Shown piece after piece: positions 17,657-31,324 of a stretch of 31,970 bases of DNA; position 1 is the stretch's first letter, and each line of letters opens with the position of its first letter. The translations under genes were made by a program, and so were the position numbers. The notes beneath the pieces are model-generated. The model saw only the letters and a list, made by a program, of their open reading frames with translations. It was not told where the DNA came from and did not search any database. This DNA is from Candidatus Woesearchaeota archaeon (GTDB taxonomy: Archaea; Nanobdellota; Nanobdellia; SCGC-AAA011-G17; CAZHCT01). The DNA lies in assembly GCA_964531355.1 (NCBI GenBank), contig CAZHCT010000002.1:1-31970 (forward strand), given 5' to 3'.

Positions 17657-18364
17657 ATGCAATTAAGCAAACTTGAGAATAGGGTTTATGAAGAACTGAA
17701 AAAGAACAAATTTATCGCATTTAAAATCAGAGATTTGAGCTTGCTGCTGAATCTAAGCAGAACAAAAGCTTACAATATTGTGAAGGCTCTTAAAAGAAAG
17801 CAGGCAATAGAGAGAATTGGGAAGAATTTTTTTGCACTAAGAGAAATGAATGATATTGTCATTGGCCAAACTATCCATTACCCTTCTTACCTTTCTTTCT
17901 GGTCTGCTTTGAACTATTACGGATTTTCTGACCAAACCCCAAAGAAAATATTTTTTGCCACAACAAAATATGCAAAGGAAATTAATAATTTTAAATATGT
18001 AACATTATCAAAGAAAAGATTTTTTGGCTATGAAAGAATAGGAGAATTAACAATTGCGGAAAAAGAAAAGGCGATTATAGACTCTTTGCTATTCCCAAAA
18101 TATTCCGGGGGAATCAGAGAAATAAACGCGGTTTTAAGAACAGGTTTGAAACAGATAAATATTAAAAGATTGATAAATTATGCCTTTAAAGTTGAGAGCA
18201 AAGCAGTTTTAAGAAGACTTGGTTTCATTCTTGAAACACTAAATTATAAAAAAGAGTTAAAAAAGATAAGAGAAAACATAGGCAGGGGCTATGAATTGCT
18301 AGATCCCGCTTTAAAAAGAAAAAATAATTTAAATAAAAAATGGCTTTTAGATGTGAACTGGTAA
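17657..18364 (+). CDS. abiEi: AbiEi-like type IV antitoxin / transcriptional regulator
   Basis: N-terminal wHTH; YPSYLSFWSALNYYGFSDQTP; AEKEKAIIDSL; RRLGFILE. Confidence 0.85.
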   Translation: MQLSKLENRVYEELKKNKFIAFKIRDLSLLLNLSRTKAYNIVKALKRKQAIERIGKNFFALREMNDIVIGQTIHYPSYLSFWSALNYYGFSDQTPKKIFFATTKYAKEINNFKYVTLSKKRFFGYERIGELTIAEKEKAIIDSLLFPKYSGGIREINAVLRTGLKQINIKRLINYAFKVESKAVLRRLGFILETLNYKKELKKIRENIGRGYELLDPALKRKNNLNKKWLLDVNW

Positions 18365-18365
18365 A

Positions 18366-19112
18366 ATGATCCTAATAGAAGAGCTTAATCAAATTAAAGA
18401 AGCAAAAAAGACAAATTCATACTATGAAGAAAAGGAATACCTGCAATATATTTTTCTTAATGCTATTTCTAAATATCCCGATAATTTTGTCTTTAAGGGG
18501 GGAACATGCTTGAAAATATGTTTTGGTCTTGAAAGAGCATCAGAAGATTTAGACTTCAGCACCAGTTTTAAGATTGATAAACTTAAAGAAGTTGTTTATA
18601 AATGCTTAAAAGATTTTGAGTTGCTTAATATAAATTATGAGATTTATTCAGAAAGAGAGTTTGAAGGCAATTTAAGATTTGAGATTAGATTTAAAGGCCC
18701 TTTATTCCAAGGACATGCAAAATCAACAAACACCCTGAAGATAGATTTCAACAAAAGAAATGTTAAAAATAAAATAATTAAAGTTATCCAAAAATTGTTT
18801 TCTGATGTGCCTTTATTCAGCATAGTTGTTTTAGATGAAAAAGAGATTCTCGCGGAAAAAATAAGGGCTTTAATTAATAGAGCAGAATCAAGAGATTTAT
18901 ATGATATATGGATGCTCTTAAATAAAGGAATAAAAATAGACAGAAAGCTTTTAATTATAAAATTAAATGAGGAAAAAAGCAAATTTTCTAATTTAAGATT
19001 TCCTTCAAAAGAGGAATATGAAAGAGATTTAAAAAATTTAGTTAAGACACTGCCATCTTACGAGCAAGTAAAGAAAGAAGTTTCAAAAGAATTTGATAAG
19101 ATTGCGCATTAA
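18366..19112 (+). CDS. abiEii: AbiEii-family nucleotidyltransferase toxin
   Basis: FVFKGGTCL...RASEDLDF; EILAEKIRAL...RDLYDIW. Confidence 0.92.
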   Translation: MILIEELNQIKEAKKTNSYYEEKEYLQYIFLNAISKYPDNFVFKGGTCLKICFGLERASEDLDFSTSFKIDKLKEVVYKCLKDFELLNINYEIYSEREFEGNLRFEIRFKGPLFQGHAKSTNTLKIDFNKRNVKNKIIKVIQKLFSDVPLFSIVVLDEKEILAEKIRALINRAESRDLYDIWMLLNKGIKIDRKLLIIKLNEEKSKFSNLRFPSKEEYERDLKNLVKTLPSYEQVKKEVSKEFDKIAH

Positions 19113-26266: not shown

Positions 26267-26386
26267 TTTTTAGCCTCCTGATAAATTTTTACTTTATAAC
26301 TACTAAAAAGAAGCAATAATTTATAAACTTTTGCTTTTTAAAATTGACATTTCATGATTTTCTGCATTTGAAATAGTATGTTATTA

Positions 26387-26887
26387 TCATCTTGCTAAGG
26401 CTTTTATTCCAGGAATCTCAAGATTATAAACTTCATCATAATAATTATAAACCTCTTTCATTAATTCTTTCACATAAGACTGTCTTTCATTGTTAATGGC
26501 TGTTTCTAATAATTTCAAAGTTCCTTTAGGAGAATTATTAAATTGCTGCATGTAAGTATCTCTTGCAATCGAAAAAAGAATCTGCTGAAAATCTTTATCT
26601 TGTATTCGTTCGGGTAAATCTATTAATAATGCATCTATGCTTGGAGTTATATCTCCTCTTAATGGCAATGTGTATGGTCCTAAATACTTTCCTAAGGATT
26701 CTATCCATTTTGGTATTTGTGTTCTTGCTTTTTTTAATTGGTTAGGGTATAATTGTATTAATCTATCTAATATTACTCCTGACAAGCCGTTTGCAGAAGT
26801 AGACAAAGCAGATAGTTTCTTAGCTGTTGGATTTTGCTCTAGGAAAGATTTGTATTGAGATTTTGAGGTTATTCTATGTTTATTAGA
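26387..26887 (-). repeat. ~500-bp direct repeat encoding the shared C-terminal domain (copy A; copy B at 30044-30544)
   Basis: 143/166 aa identical by manual alignment; 26776-26885 vs 30433-30542 match at 109/110 nt. Confidence 0.95.
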
Positions 26888-27715
26888 TCTTATTGGAATG
26901 TTATACCCCCTCAATAATCTTAAAATACATGATTTAGAAAGTTTAGTCATATTTGCAATATCAATTGAACTTCTGTTTTCCTTAATATAGAGTTCTTCTA
27001 ACTTTTCTTTTGATGGTTTATTTTTTCCTTTTAACAAAAATTCAGATGTTGTTCTTATTGGAATATTATAATCTATCAACCAATTATAGATGGTTCTAGG
27101 ACTAACTCCTATCAATTCTGCGATCTCATATGCAGTTTTATGTTTTTTAATATATAAGTAGACTAATCTTTCTTTAGGGGCTATCTTTTCCTTTTTTAGT
27201 TTAATAGTTCTTATTGGAATATCATAGTCTACTAGCCAATTAGAGATAGTTACATTGTTAACCCCAGTTAATTCAGCAAGCTCGACCATAGTCTTCTTCT
27301 CTTTAATATACCATCTCTCTAATTCTTCCTTAGATAGTTTCTTTCTGCCTTTTAACATAGATTCAGATTTAGTTCTTAAGAGAATCTCCTCTTTTTTTAA
27401 CCAGTTATAGACCGTTACGGGACTCATATTAATAATATTTCCAATTTTATAAATAGTTTTCTTTTCTTTGACATACCATCTTTCTAACTTTTTTTTTGAT
27501 GGTTTTTTTTTGTCTTTTAACTTAGCTTCTGATTTTGTTCTTGTTGGGATATTATATCTCTTTAGCCAAATTACAACACCCCCTGTAGAAATTCCTATCA
27601 TATTTGAGATATCTTCCAAGGTTTTATACCTTACTTCATATTCTCTTCTTAGAAAACTTCCTAGATCTTCTTTAATTTTTTGTTCTACTTCTTGCATTAA
27701 TTTGGTTTTTTCCAT
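26387..27715 (-). CDS. Protein with five ~55-aa HTH repeats plus an uncharacterised 166-aa C-terminal domain
   Basis: Repeat consensus KPSKEELERWYIKE.K...EIA...GVS..TI.NWL..YNIPIRT.SE..LKGK; ATG 27715 (MEKT) parallels the paralogue; track uses TTG 27727. Confidence 0.85.
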   Translation of the reverse strand: MEKTKLMQEVEQKIKEDLGSFLRREYEVRYKTLEDISNMIGISTGGVVIWLKRYNIPTRTKSEAKLKDKKKPSKKKLERWYVKEKKTIYKIGNIINMSPVTVYNWLKKEEILLRTKSESMLKGRKKLSKEELERWYIKEKKTMVELAELTGVNNVTISNWLVDYDIPIRTIKLKKEKIAPKERLVYLYIKKHKTAYEIAELIGVSPRTIYNWLIDYNIPIRTTSEFLLKGKNKPSKEKLEELYIKENRSSIDIANMTKLSKSCILRLLRGYNIPIRSNKHRITSKSQYKSFLEQNPTAKKLSALSTSANGLSGVILDRLIQLYPNQLKKARTQIPKWIESLGKYLGPYTLPLRGDITPSIDALLIDLPERIQDKDFQQILFSIARDTYMQQFNNSPKGTLKLLETAINNERQSYVKELMKEVYNYYDEVYNLEIPGIKALAR

Positions 27716-27723
27716 ACTTTCTC

Positions 27724-30042
27724 TCAAAAACTGATCTCCTTCTCTTTCTGTTTATTTTCCCTCTTATCAATTCTAACTTTTACCTTGGATGAATTGGAGA
27801 AGACTGAATCCATATGCATTTTAAATTGATCTTCTTTTAGTCCCTTCTCGCATGGATTTGATTTTTTCTGAAGACACATCTCATAAATGTTAAAATTGTC
27901 CTTCTCTCTAACAAAGCCTGTCAACTCAGGAACTATTTCAAATCCTAGTTTGGAAGCTCCTTCTTTGTACCTGGACATATCTTTTTCATTAAATGTACTT
28001 CCAGGAAGTGTGATTATTAGATAACCCTCTTTTCTTAAAACTCTATTTGATTCCCTGAAAAATGTTTCTCTTTCTTTTAATTCTTTTTGGGTTTTTCTTT
28101 TTCTTTTGCCAATTTTTTCTTCTATTATTTCTATTCTCTTCAAAGAAAACATTTGATATGCTAAAGAACAAACGGCTAAATCAAAATGCCCATCTTTATA
28201 TGGAATTTTATGAGCTGGTGTTAAATGGTAAGTGCTTTCCTTATGAGCCACTTTCTTAGCCATTTGAATAGCATATGGGTCTATGTCAACACCAACAGTT
28301 GGTTTTCCTAATGACATTGAAAGAATTCCAGGACCACAGCAAATGTCCAATTTTTTTTCTAAATTTATTTTTTCTTCAAGTTTTTCAATTGCTTTTTTTA
28401 CTACTTTTGCGGTATTTCCTTGAAGAGAATTCCAAAAGTCAGTTAAATATAATTTAATAATTTCTTTTTGGATATCTGGATATTTTTTAATGTGTTTTAT
28501 TATTCTTTCTGCTCCTAGATCTCTCCACTTAAGATAGTGATGCGTCACTAAATATCTTGATGATTGAACAGCATTTCTTATTGGCTTTAAGTTTGATACT
28601 TTGCCATTTTCAATTAATTCTAATTCTTCTTTAGAGATTGTAAATCCACTTAATAAGTATCTAATAATTCTTCCCTTGTCTTCTAATAGTCTCTCAATAC
28701 CTTGGTCTATTGTAGGAACATGATTTTTAGCTATTAAACTGTATACTTTTAATTCTTCTTTTTTAAATTCCCCTCTTCTTTGAGATCTTTTTACAGCTTG
28801 ATCAAATGATGAAGGTGTATATGGTTTATCCAAGAATACTATTGTTGTAGCTCTTGTTAAGTCAACTCCTTCATTCATTGTTTCTGTTGTAGCGAATAAT
28901 ACTTTATGATTTTCATCATTTTGGAATTTTTTTCTTATTTTCTCTCTTTCGCTATCTTCTCCATTTTTTCTTGCTGTATCAACATCACCATCTATTACGC
29001 AAGAACCATATTGTTTATATCTTTCTGATAATTTATCTGTAACTCCCTTTTTGAAATGCGAACTAAATACAAGTACTTTTCCATTGTTTTTGGTTTCTTC
29101 TTCTATTATCTTATCTAATTTCTTGTATTTGCAGGATTCTGCTGTTTTTAGTCTTTTTTTAAGTTCTGGGTCAGCTATATATTTTGGATCAACTAGCGAT
29201 GGATCTAATGAAGCTTTTAATAAAACCTTTAATTTTGTTTCAACAGAAATATTATCATTATTATACACCTCCGTGTAAATTTTTTCATGATCTTCTGTTA
29301 ATCTTACTTCTAGATCTTTATATTCTACTTTAGGAACTTCTTTTTTAATATAATCTTCTGCTAATCTTCTTAATTTCTTTTCACCGAATACTTTTTTAAC
29401 AGCTTCTGGATCTGTTTTATAGATGTTATAAAATAATCTTAAGATTTTTGAGCTACTTCCAAAATCCATTTTATATTTTTTTGGATCAATCAAGCTCATT
29501 ATCATATACATATCAACAATGCTATTTGGGATGGGTGTACCGCTAAGTAGAGCTAAATATTCTGAATTGTCTACAATCTCTTTAACAGATCTTGTTCTGT
29601 AAGCTTCAGGATTTTTGGCATTATGGATTTCGTCTCCGATAGTATAATCAAATTTCACTTTTTTAAGCTCATTAAGAATTTTCATCCCCCTCTTAGAATT
29701 TCTCATTGAGAGCAAGTCATAATTTATGATTACAAAATCAGATTCTTTAGCTTGTTTTACTATCTTATCGAGATCTTCGTATTTAATATTACTATCAATA
29801 GTAAGAATATTAGCATTTTCTTTGTAATACCACTTTTTAATTTCATTTTCCCAATGTTCTTTAACAGAATTAGGGCAAATGACTAAAGTTGAAATGTTTT
29901 TATTTTTCTGTTTTTCTATCAAAGATTTTGCCATGATTGCTTGAGCGGTTTTGCCAACGCCCATCTCATCAGCTAATAAGGACCTTTTATTATCCACAAT
30001 ATATTTTGCTCCAATTATTTGATAAGGGTTTGCTTCTTTCAT
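27724..30042 (-). CDS. SNF2/SWI2-family helicase-like ATPase fused to a C-terminal class I SAM-dependent methyltransferase
   Basis: LADEMGVGKT, LVICPNSV, IGDEIH, LSGTPIPN, MNEGVDLT, QAVKRSQRRG; then LDICCGPG, VGVDID, IPYKDGHFDLAVCSL. Confidence 0.92.
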   Translation of the reverse strand: MKEANPYQIIGAKYIVDNKRSLLADEMGVGKTAQAIMAKSLIEKQKNKNISTLVICPNSVKEHWENEIKKWYYKENANILTIDSNIKYEDLDKIVKQAKESDFVIINYDLLSMRNSKRGMKILNELKKVKFDYTIGDEIHNAKNPEAYRTRSVKEIVDNSEYLALLSGTPIPNSIVDMYMIMSLIDPKKYKMDFGSSSKILRLFYNIYKTDPEAVKKVFGEKKLRRLAEDYIKKEVPKVEYKDLEVRLTEDHEKIYTEVYNNDNISVETKLKVLLKASLDPSLVDPKYIADPELKKRLKTAESCKYKKLDKIIEEETKNNGKVLVFSSHFKKGVTDKLSERYKQYGSCVIDGDVDTARKNGEDSEREKIRKKFQNDENHKVLFATTETMNEGVDLTRATTIVFLDKPYTPSSFDQAVKRSQRRGEFKKEELKVYSLIAKNHVPTIDQGIERLLEDKGRIIRYLLSGFTISKEELELIENGKVSNLKPIRNAVQSSRYLVTHHYLKWRDLGAERIIKHIKKYPDIQKEIIKLYLTDFWNSLQGNTAKVVKKAIEKLEEKINLEKKLDICCGPGILSMSLGKPTVGVDIDPYAIQMAKKVAHKESTYHLTPAHKIPYKDGHFDLAVCSLAYQMFSLKRIEIIEEKIGKRKRKTQKELKERETFFRESNRVLRKEGYLIITLPGSTFNEKDMSRYKEGASKLGFEIVPELTGFVREKDNFNIYEMCLQKKSNPCEKGLKEDQFKMHMDSVFSNSSKVKVRIDKRENKQKEKEISF

Positions 30043-30043
30043 T

Positions 30044-31216
30044 TTAATTTCGTAAAGGTTTTATACCTGGAATCTCAAGATTATAAACATCTGAATAATA
30101 TTGATAAACTTGTTTTTTCAATTCTTTTATATAAGACTGTTTTTCATTATCTACAGCTATTTCTAGTGATTTTAAAGTTCCTTTAGGAGAATCATTAAAT
30201 TGCTGCATGTAAGTATCTCTTACAATTGAAAAAATAATTTGTTGAAAGTCATCATCTTTTATCTGCTCTGGTAAGTCTGTTAATAATGCATCTATACTTG
30301 GAGTTATATCTCCTCTTAATGGTAGAGTATATGGTCCTAAGTATTTTCCCAAGGATTCTATCCATTTTGGTATTTGTGTTCTTGCTTTTTTTAATTGATT
30401 AGGATATAACTGTATTAGTCTATCTAAAATAGCTCCTGACAAGCCGTTTGCAGAAGTAGACAAAGCAGATAGTTTCTTAGCTGTTGGATTTTGCTCTATG
30501 AAAGATTTGTATTGAGATTTTGAGGTTATTCTATGTTTATTACTTCGGATTGGAATATTATACTGTTTTAGCCATCTTACGATAGTTGGACCGGAAACAC
30601 CTATCATCTCTGCTATCTCATAAGTATTTTTATTCTCTTTAATATACCATTTTTCTAATTCTTCCTTAGATGGTTTTTTCTTGCCTTTCAGTTGGATTTC
30701 TGATATTGTTCTTAGCTTAATATTATAATCTTTTAGCCAATTTCCGATAGTTGAATTAGTCACTTTGAGTATATCTGCAATTTCAATTGTGGTTTTATTC
30801 TCCTTGAGATATAATCTCTTTAATTCTTCCTTAGATGGTTTTTTCTTTCCTTTTAACATAGCTTCTGATGTTGTTCTTGTTAGAATGTTATATTCTTTCA
30901 ACCATTTTCCAATGCACGTATCACTAACCCCTATCATATCTGCTATCTCATAAGTATTTTTATTCTCTTTAATATACCATCTTTCTAATTCTTCTTTTGA
31001 TGGTTTCTTTTTTCCTTTCAATTTAGTTTCCGATAATGTTCTTATGGGAATGTTGTACCTTATTAACCATCCACAAATGGTACTTATATCCACTCCCACT
31101 TTACTAGCAATTTTAGTTGTACTTTGATATTTTTTGACATAGGTTTTTCTAAGAAAACTTTCTAAATCCTCCCCAATCCTCTTTTCTATTTCAAGCATTC
31201 TCCTAGTTTTTTCCAT
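30044..31216 (-). CDS. Protein with four ~55-aa HTH repeats plus the same C-terminal domain (paralogue of 26387-27715)
   Basis: Repeats start at aa ~21, 70, 125 and 180; a 42-nt block is identical between repeats 2 and 4 (30939-30980 = 30609-30650). Confidence 0.88.
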   Translation of the reverse strand: MEKTRRMLEIEKRIGEDLESFLRKTYVKKYQSTTKIASKVGVDISTICGWLIRYNIPIRTLSETKLKGKKKPSKEELERWYIKENKNTYEIADMIGVSDTCIGKWLKEYNILTRTTSEAMLKGKKKPSKEELKRLYLKENKTTIEIADILKVTNSTIGNWLKDYNIKLRTISEIQLKGKKKPSKEELEKWYIKENKNTYEIAEMIGVSGPTIVRWLKQYNIPIRSNKHRITSKSQYKSFIEQNPTAKKLSALSTSANGLSGAILDRLIQLYPNQLKKARTQIPKWIESLGKYLGPYTLPLRGDITPSIDALLTDLPEQIKDDDFQQIIFSIVRDTYMQQFNDSPKGTLKSLEIAVDNEKQSYIKELKKQVYQYYSDVYNLEIPGIKPLRN

Positions 31217-31324
31217 TTTCTTTATGGTCTTTTTGATATTTTTAAGCCTTTCTATTCATAACTACTTTATAGTTATAAACTATTAAACCTTAACTTTAAA
31301 TATCTAAAATTTATGTTAAAATAA

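What the first reader, a model, noticed from the sequence alone, without database searches (positions are those of the whole stretch)
26888..31156. Nine ~55-aa HTH repeats with a constant scaffold and hypervariable recognition helix
Seen: the scaffold KPSKEEL..WY.KE.K...EIA and WL..YNIPIRT.SE..LKGK is conserved. The turn/recognition-helix segment differs in all nine units: VDISTICG, VSDTCIGK, VTNSTIGN, VSGPTIVR, ISTGGVVI, MSPVTVYN, VNNVTISN, VSPRTIYN, LSKSCILR. Repeats 2 and 4 of the 390-aa protein share an identical 42-nt block up to the variable helix. Inference: a modular DNA-reading array that diversifies by repeat shuffling, loosely analogous to zinc-finger or TALE arrays.
Basis: partly seen in the sequence, partly recalled or inferred. 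Interest (0 to 1): 0.72.

Follow-up and report, generated by a model that had tools for sequence, protein, structure and literature searches.

The report
HTH-array targeting subunits of SNF2-methyltransferase
Two neighbouring genes in a very small archaeal genome encode chains of four and five small DNA-binding (helix-turn-helix) units ending in a shared, unnamed docking domain, and they most likely steer the DNA-motor/methyltransferase enzyme encoded between them to specific long DNA sites.

Summary
Nine in-register units of about 55 aa (4 in the 390-aa protein, 5 in its 442-aa paralogue) each match a profile built only from other proteins' units (i-E 6.5e-16 to 2.9e-26). The 42-nt identical block is real. 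Each unit models as a three-helix HTH, and the exposed face of helix 3 is the most variable part among the nine.

"Constant scaffold, hypervariable helix" is overstated. Units are 24-65% identical. In 255 units from 62 proteins other surface positions vary as much. In one pair of close relatives (619 and 620 aa, same unit order) substitutions are spread evenly.

Change by whole units is supported: relatives carry 1-9 units, and one 91%-identical pair differs by a clean two-unit indel.

The larger result is the context. Both arrays end in an unnamed 166-aa helical domain. Its gene sits directly upstream of an SNF2-ATPase/class-I-methyltransferase fusion in all 8 loci with enough sequence. It is fused to that enzyme in two relatives, and it is predicted to dock on the SNF2 N-lobe (0.71 vs 0.00 for controls). 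Other family members carry different repeat types on the same domain.

The same HTH unit serves HNH and GIY-YIG nucleases elsewhere. This scan has noted HTH arrays before on other DNA. The methylation substrate is unknown.

The parts
30044..31216 (-). Gene A, 390 aa (P0001): short leader, four HTH units, 166-aa C-terminal domain (CTD)
31007..31171 (-). HTH unit A1 (aa 16-70)
   Evidence: i-E 1.1e-18
30842..31006 (-). HTH unit A2 (aa 71-125); holds the 42-nt block 30939-30980, identical to 30609-30650 in A4
30677..30841 (-). HTH unit A3 (aa 126-180)
30545..30676 (-). HTH unit A4 core (aa 181-224), joined directly to the CTD
30047..30544 (-). CTD of A (aa 225-390): all-helical, no Pfam family, predicted to dock on the SNF2 N-lobe
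30433..30542 (-). 110-nt tract, 109/110 identical to 26776-26885 in gene B (start of the CTD): gene-conversion tract
27724..30042 (-). SNF2 ATPase (aa 1-~470) fused to a class I SAM methyltransferase (aa ~545-700), 772 aa (P0003). Its start lies 1 nt after the stop of A; its stop lies 8 nt before the ATG of B
26387..27715 (-). Gene B, 442 aa from the ATG (P0004; P0002 is the reading from TTG 27727): five HTH units plus the CTD
27506..27670 (-). HTH unit B1
27341..27505 (-). HTH unit B2
27185..27340 (-). HTH unit B3 (52 aa, short linker)
27020..27184 (-). HTH unit B4
26888..27019 (-). HTH unit B5 core, joined directly to the CTD
26390..26887 (-). CTD of B: 86% aa and 87% nt identical to the CTD of A

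Best explanation
A and B are alternative DNA-targeting subunits of the SNF2-ATPase/methyltransferase encoded between them.

Each protein is a chain of independent three-helix HTH domains joined by basic linkers. Each domain has its own recognition helix, so the chain as a whole would read a long composite DNA site (inferred). The shared 166-aa helical C-terminal domain (CTD) is a docking module. Its most conserved motifs (Y..xFN..P, and the C-terminal IPG tail) bind the N-terminal lobe of the SNF2 motor. This step is supported by synteny, natural fusions and a complex model, but it is not shown biochemically. The docked enzyme would then use ATP-driven DNA translocation and SAM-dependent methylation at or near the bound site (inferred). 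The methyl acceptor is unknown, and the methyltransferase is not of the usual DNA N6A/N4C/C5 type.

Specificity evolves by swapping, duplicating and deleting whole units, and even whole array types, on a constant CTD. The two CTDs in one genome are kept alike by gene conversion, so both fit the single partner. Specificity does not seem to evolve by rapid mutation of recognition helices.
For: 1. HTH nature. HTH_23 and HTH_28 match above their cut-offs. In the two-unit model, helices lie at residues 4-13, 18-25 and 29-38, with pLDDT about 90 inside units. All nine units match a profile built from other proteins.

2. DNA-enzyme setting. The same unit is joined to HNH, HNH_3, GIY-YIG and Mom-family domains in relatives.

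3. Link between the CTD and SNF2-MT.
- An exhaustive phmmer search finds 94 cluster representatives. The CTD is C-terminal in all array-bearing hits; the one listed exception, P0097, carries it N-terminally, fused to the enzyme.
- The CTD gene lies directly upstream of an SNF2-MT gene in the window, L004, the P0007 contig, L008, L009, L015, L017 and L018. That is 8 of 8 loci with enough flank.
- P0097 is a CTD-SNF2-MT fusion. P0122 is an HNH_repeat-CTD-SNF2-MT fusion (CTD i-E 2.3e-10).

4. Complex model. The score is 0.71 (runs 0.68, 0.73, 0.71) against a best control of 0.00. In the tool's calibration this mark was reached by 58 of 80 solved complexes and 2 of 110 mismatched pairs; those counts hold only roughly here because my own alignments were used. 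The runs share at least 75% of their contacts, and partner pLDDT is at least 71. The interface is CTD residues 106-120 and 152-164, which include the near-invariant F116, N117 and P120, against SNF2 residues 1-13, 37-44, 73 and 220-231. This fits the fusion topology, in which the CTD C-terminus joins the SNF2 N-terminus. No similar solved complex is known for the CTD.

5. Modularity. The same CTD carries HTH arrays, Pfam HNH_repeat arrays (P0035, P0037, L017) and at least two unnamed repeat types (P0027/P0029, P0030/P0031).

6. Concerted evolution. CTD dS is 0.42, with a 109/110-nt tract, whereas the arrays give dS of about 0.7 up to saturation (about 3). In L004 the two CTDs are likewise near-identical to each other, yet only 23-24% identical to the window's.

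7. Unit-wise change. P0006 and P0046 differ by a two-unit indel. A2 and A4 are 77% identical over the core and share the 42-nt block.
Against: - No binding site, methylation product or interaction has been measured.
- The complex score is a model's own confidence, and my own alignments were used.
- The methyltransferase lacks (D/N/S)PP(Y/F/W) and resembles small-molecule and protein methyltransferases. DNA may therefore not be the methyl acceptor.
- Five other loci (L008, L009, L015, L017, L018) have only one CTD gene, so two arrays are not essential.
- The P0006/P0046 indel could be an assembly collapse of repeats.
- The even-substitution result rests on a single pair of close relatives.
Confidence: 0.62

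Rival explanations
1. The cassette is an anti-virus or anti-plasmid system of the restriction-modification, DISARM or Zorya kind. The arrays are fast-changing specificity subunits, and the methyltransferase marks self or foreign DNA. This reading is compatible with the docking model but adds a defence role.
For: The SNF2 part matches ZorD, DrmD and DpdE profiles. Distribution is patchy: 5 of 401 sampled genomes of the phylum and 1 of 60 in the order. Exchangeable specificity modules are typical of conflict systems. Five related cassettes carry an AAG-fold (methylpurine glycosylase-like) gene next to them.
Against: All matches lie far below the curated cut-offs: 78 against 1500 bits for ZorD and 71.5 against 610 bits for DrmD. 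No nuclease or other effector lies in the cassette. The methyltransferase has no DNA amino- or C5-methyltransferase motif. The flanks are housekeeping genes (Mre11/Rad50 and Sua5). Recognition helices are not fast-evolving between close relatives.
Confidence: 0.25
2. A and B are ordinary multi-HTH transcription regulators that merely control the operon or other genes and do not bind the enzyme.
For: HTH proteins commonly autoregulate. A 7-nt inverted repeat lies 42-60 nt upstream of gene A.
Against: The CTD is fused to the SNF2-MT protein in two relatives. Gene order is fixed, with gaps or overlaps of a few nt, across proteins only 36-48% identical. The complex model passes with zero-score controls. 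The CTD carries unrelated repeat types, which fits an adaptor better than a regulator.
Confidence: 0.1
3. One reading: a TALE- or zinc-finger-like code in which a near-constant scaffold carries a few hypervariable specificity residues under diversifying selection.
For: Within the nine units, helix-3 exposed columns are the most variable (2.18 against 1.49 bits, p about 5e-4). They fall on one face of helix 3 (i, i+1, i+4, i+5, i+8, i+9).
Against: Units share only 24-65% identity. In 255 units, columns 13, 19, 24 and 46 vary as much as helix 3. Between close relatives substitutions are not enriched in helix 3 (Fisher p 0.72). dN/dS between units is 0.11-0.50, that is, purifying selection overall.
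Confidence: 0.08
4. The arrays are leftovers of homing endonucleases that lost their nuclease, and the cassette is a selfish element.
For: The same HTH unit and Pfam HNH_repeat units occur on HNH and GIY-YIG nucleases. Distribution is patchy.
Against: The CTD family has 94 representatives under clear constraint, with near-invariant residues. No nuclease, integrase or terminal repeats lie in the cassette. The partnership with SNF2-MT is conserved.
Confidence: 0.05

Closest known systems
Modular DNA-binding regions of phage and intron homing endonucleases (NUMOD-type HTH motifs of I-TevI, I-HmuI, I-Bth0305I; PMC3239194)
   Same: Small HTH modules are strung in an extended chain to contact long DNA sites. 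Relatives of this very unit sit on HNH, HNH_3 and GIY-YIG nuclease domains.
   Different: Here the arrays have 4-5 units (up to 9 in relatives), against 1-2 in the studied enzymes. No nuclease is attached. The arrays end in an unnamed docking domain and partner with an SNF2-methyltransferase. No NUMOD1 profile match was reported for a single unit at E<=1.
Type I restriction-modification enzymes (HsdS specificity subunit + HsdM methyltransferase + HsdR SF2 motor)
   Same: The logic matches: an exchangeable DNA-specificity subunit joined to a methyltransferase and an ATP-driven DNA translocase, with conserved regions of the specificity subunit kept alike while the target-reading parts differ.
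   Different: There is no homology. The motor is SNF2, not HsdR. The methyltransferase is the Methyltransf_11 type without DPPY. There is no nuclease. The specificity parts are repeat arrays, not TRDs.
Sulfolobus solfataricus SSO1653 SNF2 ATPase core (PDB 1Z63) and eukaryotic ISWI/CHD remodellers recruited by DNA-binding subunits
   Same: SSO1653 is the closest solved sequence to the motor (E 1.1e-28). Like those enzymes, this would be an SNF2 dsDNA translocase steered by accessory DNA-binding modules.
   Different: The motor is fused to a methyltransferase and partnered with array-CTD proteins. No nucleosome context is known in this lineage.
TALE and C2H2 zinc-finger arrays; bipartite HTH domains of Tc1/mariner transposases, Pax paired domains, archaeal Cbp1
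   Same: Tandem small DNA-reading modules. The weak fold hits of the two-unit model are almost all such bipartite HTH proteins: Mos1, Tc3, DUX4, Pax6 and a CRISPR-repeat-binding protein (all E > 0.1).
   Different: The scaffold is far less uniform than in TALEs, no unit-to-base code is known, and no fold hit reaches E 0.001.

Membership tests
Helix-turn-helix, Pfam HTH_23 (PF13384) / HTH clan | Profile match above the gathering score | tested here: met
   P0001 scores 63.3 bits and P0002 44.3 bits against a cut-off of 24.6. A single unit alone scores 18.1 bits, below the cut-off.
Helix-turn-helix, Pfam HTH_23 (PF13384) / HTH clan | Three-helix bundle with helix 2-turn-helix 3 | tested here: met
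   AF2 two-unit model: H1 4-13, H2 18-25, H3 29-38 in each unit, with pLDDT about 90 in units.
NUMOD1 (nuclease-associated modular DNA-binding domain 1) | Match to the Pfam NUMOD1 profile | tested here: not met
   NUMOD1 is not among the families reported for one unit at E<=1, nor in the top 25 for the whole proteins. HMMER filters can drop weak matches.
NUMOD1 (nuclease-associated modular DNA-binding domain 1) | Occurs as the DNA-binding part of homing nucleases | tested here: met
   Relatives of the unit are joined to HNH (P0012, 22.4 against 21.4 bits), HNH_3 (P0022, 35.7 against 24.8) and GIY-YIG (P0015, 23.3 against 22.6). The window's own proteins have no nuclease.
TALE-like / zinc-finger-like coded arrays | Near-identical scaffold with a few hypervariable specificity residues | tested here: not met
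   Units are 24-65% identical. Variability is also high outside helix 3 in 255 units.
TALE-like / zinc-finger-like coded arrays | One unit reads a fixed number of base pairs | not testable with these tools
   Needs binding assays or a DNA co-structure.
SNF2 family ATPase (partner protein) | SNF2-rel_dom + Helicase_C with intact ATPase motifs | tested here: met
   PF00176 115.7 bits and PF00271 64.8 bits. GxGKT, DExH, SGTPIPN and Q..R..R are conserved in 8 homologues. 1Z63 matches at E 1.1e-28.
DNA N6A/N4C/C5 methyltransferases (as in R-M, BREX, DISARM) | Motif IV (D/N/S)PP(Y/F/W), or the catalytic PC of C5 enzymes in context | tested here: not met
   There is no such motif in P0003; the only PC lies at aa 730, outside the fold core. 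The best matches are Methyltransf_11, UbiG/UbiE and PrmA.
Zorya ZorD / DISARM DrmD / Dpd DpdE | Score above the NCBIfam equivalog cut-off | tested here: not met
   78 against 1500 bits, 71.5 against 610 bits and 62.8 against 500 bits. This is generic SNF2 similarity only.
CTD family (unnamed; defined here by alignment A1) | About 165-aa helical domain with A22, Y112, F116-N117, P120 and Y150, placed at the C-terminus after a repeat array | tested here: met
   Both window proteins carry it. There are 94 representatives, alignment A1 and a model with pLDDT 87. It has no Pfam family.

The most novel reading that the evidence does not exclude
A sequence-programmable SNF2 motor-methyltransferase of DPANN-type archaea. 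Exchangeable repeat arrays (HTH, homing-endonuclease-associated repeat and others) plug in through a new docking domain and set where the enzyme acts. The enzyme writes a non-canonical methyl mark, either a methylpurine in DNA or a mark on a chromatin protein. In one clade that mark is handled by a dedicated AAG-fold protein whose catalytic glutamate is replaced by glycine, which suggests a reader rather than a glycosylase.
Probability: 0.22. Interest if true: 0.85.

Novelty: new variant of a known kind. Interest (0 to 1): 0.62.

Why it matters
Tandem HTH arrays as long-site DNA readers are known from homing endonucleases, and this scan has met them repeatedly. The unusual point here is that such arrays are detachable subunits. 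They share an uncatalogued docking domain and are coupled to an SNF2 translocase fused to a methyltransferase of unknown substrate.

If the docking and targeting model holds, the system would be a natural plug-in targeting platform: different repeat chemistries on one adaptor, serving a DNA motor-modifier. It would also be a rare lead on site-directed DNA or chromatin modification in DPANN-type archaea with minimal genomes. The predicted interface and the natural fusions make the model directly testable.

Tried and rejected
- Tandem Repeats Finder on 26300-31300 found no 165-nt array. The repeat is visible only at protein level, and weakly with the repeat finder.
- Fold searches with the CTD model gave nothing above noise. 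PDB Foldseek's best E was 1.1. VIA wide gave a best Z of 6.2 on half the model, within the range the tool calls common for helical proteins. AFDB clusters returned only the CTD's own family. I therefore do not name a fold.
- The fold search with the two-unit model gave no hit at E<=0.001.
- Pfam, NCBIfam and PADLOC give no family for the CTD.
- The word-indexed search with the methyltransferase half found only 3 relatives, so I used synteny and genome searches instead.
- The Atlas feature search on the methyltransferase half returned only generic Methyltransf_11 clusters below 0.9.
- Four literature searches found no description of this cassette. This is a limited library, so it is not proof of novelty.
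- The AAG-like partner gene seen in relatives was not found in the window's own genome, which is 89% complete.
- The gene downstream of SNF2-MT in L008 is not a CTD protein, so a second array gene is not universal.
- Codon-level dN/dS on orthologous arrays could not be done, because the P0007 contig has no DNA available.

Full report
**Anatomy**

The window is contig C2 of a 743-kb genome in 65 contigs, 89% complete, with about 28% GC. Three co-directional genes lie on the minus strand.
- Gene A (30044-31216, 390 aa).
- A 772-aa gene (27724-30042).
- Gene B (26387-27715 from its ATG, 442 aa).

The middle gene starts 1 nt after the stop of A. Its stop lies 8 nt before the ATG of B. The flanks are Mre11- and Rad50-like genes on one side and Sua5 on the other.

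**Checking the observation**

A holds four units and B five. They sit in a gap-free 55-aa register; B3 is 52 aa. A profile built only from 246 units of other proteins finds all nine, with i-E 6.5e-16 to 2.9e-26. The 42-nt block shared by A2 and A4 is exact (30939-30980 equals 30609-30650).

At DNA level the units are only 42-72% identical and Tandem Repeats Finder sees nothing. Pairwise protein identity is 24-65%, so "constant scaffold" is too strong.

**What a unit is**

Pfam gives HTH_23 and HTH_28 above their cut-offs for both proteins. An AlphaFold2 model of A2-A3, built with 79 two-unit fragments, has helices at residues 4-13, 18-25 and 29-38, then an extended YNIPIR stretch, a short helix (46-50) and a basic linker. 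pLDDT is about 90 inside units and about 70 in linkers, and pTM is 0.49. That is beads on a string.

The variable columns 29, 30, 33, 34, 37 and 38 follow an i, i+1, i+4, i+5, i+8, i+9 pattern on helix 3. T31, I32, W35 and L36 are conserved.

**How variable is helix 3?**

- Among the nine units, helix-3 exposed columns average 2.18 bits against 1.49 bits for other non-core columns (permutation p about 5e-4). The columns were chosen after inspection.
- In 255 units from 62 proteins the most variable columns are 19, 29, 46, 33, 13, 30, 24 and 34. Helix 3 is high but not unique.
- Between the close relatives P0007 and P0008 (619 and 620 aa, same eight-unit order) substitutions are even: 11/56 at helix-3 exposed positions, 49/219 at other surface positions and 17/95 in the core (Fisher p 0.72).
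- dN/dS between units is 0.11-0.50.

So each unit carries its own stable recognition helix. There is no sign of hypermutation.

**How arrays change**

Unit number ranges from 1 to 9 in relatives. P0006 and P0046 are 91% identical, and 100% identical over nearly all of the CTD. They differ by one in-register 112-aa (two-unit) indel. An assembly collapse cannot be excluded.

In the window, A2 and A4 are 77% identical over the core. The first units match each other best (A1-B1), as do the last units (A4-B5), while the internal units resemble A2/A4. This points to internal duplication.

**The same unit on other enzymes**

A word-indexed search found 24 relatives. Besides CTD-bearing proteins, they include arrays joined to HNH (P0012), HNH_3 (P0022), GIY-YIG (P0015) and a Mom-family domain (P0024). 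[quoted passage not shown] No NUMOD1 profile match was reported for one unit.

**The C-terminal domain (CTD)**

A and B share a 166-aa C-terminal domain that is 86% identical in protein and 87% in DNA. It has no Pfam, NCBIfam or PADLOC family.

An exhaustive phmmer search found 94 cluster representatives. The domain is C-terminal in all array-bearing hits; the one listed exception, P0097, carries it N-terminally, fused to the enzyme. A 60-sequence alignment shows near-invariant A22, Y112, F116, N117, P120 and Y150 and no obvious catalytic residues. The model is all-helical with pLDDT 87 and has no convincing fold relative.

The parts N-terminal to the CTD are tandem arrays of different kinds:
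- this HTH unit;
- Pfam HNH_repeat, the homing endonuclease associated repeat (P0035, P0037 and the L017 protein);
- at least two unnamed repeat types (P0027/P0029 and P0030/P0031).

**Link to the SNF2-methyltransferase**

The middle gene encodes an SNF2 ATPase whose closest solved sequence is the Sulfolobus SSO1653 core, 1Z63 (E 1.1e-28). It is fused to a Methyltransf_11-type class I methyltransferase. ATPase motifs and SAM motif I are conserved in eight homologues that are 36-48% identical. No (D/N/S)PP(Y/F/W) motif is present.

A CTD gene lies directly upstream of such a fusion gene in the window, L004, the P0007 contig, L008, L009, L015, L017 and L018. P0097 is a CTD-SNF2-MT fusion. P0122 is an HNH_repeat-CTD-SNF2-MT fusion.

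A complex prediction with alignments scored 0.71 (runs 0.68, 0.73, 0.71) against 0.00 for the best of three controls. In the tool's calibration that mark was reached by 58 of 80 solved complexes and 2 of 110 mismatched pairs; those counts are only rough here because my own alignments were used. The runs share at least 75% of their contacts and partner pLDDT is at least 71. The interface uses the CTD's conserved FN..P region and C-terminal IPG tail against SNF2 residues 1-13, 37-44, 73 and 220-231. This agrees with the fusion topology.

**Concerted evolution of the two CTDs**

dS is 0.42 in the CTD, against about 0.7 up to saturation in the arrays. A 110-nt tract at the array-CTD junction is 109/110 identical (30433-30542 and 26776-26885). 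In L004 the two CTDs are likewise almost identical to each other, yet only 23-24% identical to the window's. Gene conversion that keeps both adaptors fitted to one partner explains this.

**Distribution**

The CTD was found in 5 of 401 sampled genomes of the phylum and in 1 of 60 of the order besides the window's own genome. The system is rare and patchy. Neighbours in related loci are archaeal housekeeping genes such as L35Ae, thermosome and eIF-1A.

**A lead on chemistry**

In L004, the P0007 contig, L015 and L017 a 150-200-aa Pur_DNA_glyco (AAG-fold) gene lies directly upstream of the array gene. In G046 it lies at a contig end.

Aligned to human AAG, the ETEAY segment reads Q(T/V)GAY. The glutamate two residues before the stacking tyrosine is the general base E125 by my knowledge of AAG. 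In all three sequences examined it is glycine, while 58-60% of the protein is conserved among them. This hints at a methylpurine-related substrate and a reader-like partner.

This gene was not found in the window's own genome. I treat it as a hypothesis only.

**Verdict**

The arrays are best read as exchangeable targeting subunits of an SNF2-methyltransferase. I found no description of this cassette in four literature searches of a limited library. Notes from this scan report similar HTH arrays in other genomes and the same cassette in this window.

Noticed in passing
L004:159-620; L015:7389-7844 (-); L017:10714-11196 (-); P0007 contig; G046:C11:35532-35981: A short AAG-fold (Pur_DNA_glyco) gene lies directly upstream of the array-CTD gene in five related cassettes. 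The position of the catalytic glutamate of human AAG is an invariant glycine (GAY instead of EAY). It was not found in the window's own genome.
   Followed up: partly
L015:8003-9220 (-): An S-adenosylmethionine synthetase gene sits next to the AAG-like gene and the cassette in G259. This may be chance.
   Followed up: no
window 31258-31276: Inverted repeat ATAACTA-N5-TAGTTAT, 42-60 nt upstream of the ATG of gene A, in the 108-nt gap shared with the divergent Sua5 gene. It could be an operator.
   Followed up: no
L004:2543-2950: A 135-aa protein made of two HTH units only, without a CTD, is inserted between the first array gene and the SNF2-MT gene.
   Followed up: no
P0024 (459 aa, metagenome): Two units of the same HTH type are joined to a Mom-family (DNA-modification) domain (35.3 bits against a cut-off of 27.1). 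The unit therefore serves DNA modifiers as well as nucleases.
   Followed up: partly
P0005, P0011, P0013 (metagenome): HTH arrays of 5-9 units surround or precede a conserved domain of about 115 aa (YERRVDNWLY...DFKV...IEIWG). It has no Pfam match and looks like a PD-(D/E)xK / Vsr-type nuclease by eye only.
   Followed up: no
window 17657-19112: An AbiEii nucleotidyltransferase toxin gene (104 bits) lies after a gene with a weak TrmB-type HTH match (22.9 bits, below the 25.6-bit cut-off): a type IV toxin-antitoxin-like pair.
   Followed up: no
window 28043-28110 (P0003 aa ~645-665): The window's methyltransferase domain has a lysine/arginine-rich insertion (IEIIEEKIGKRKRKTQKE) that is partly or wholly missing from the seven aligned homologues.
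   Followed up: no
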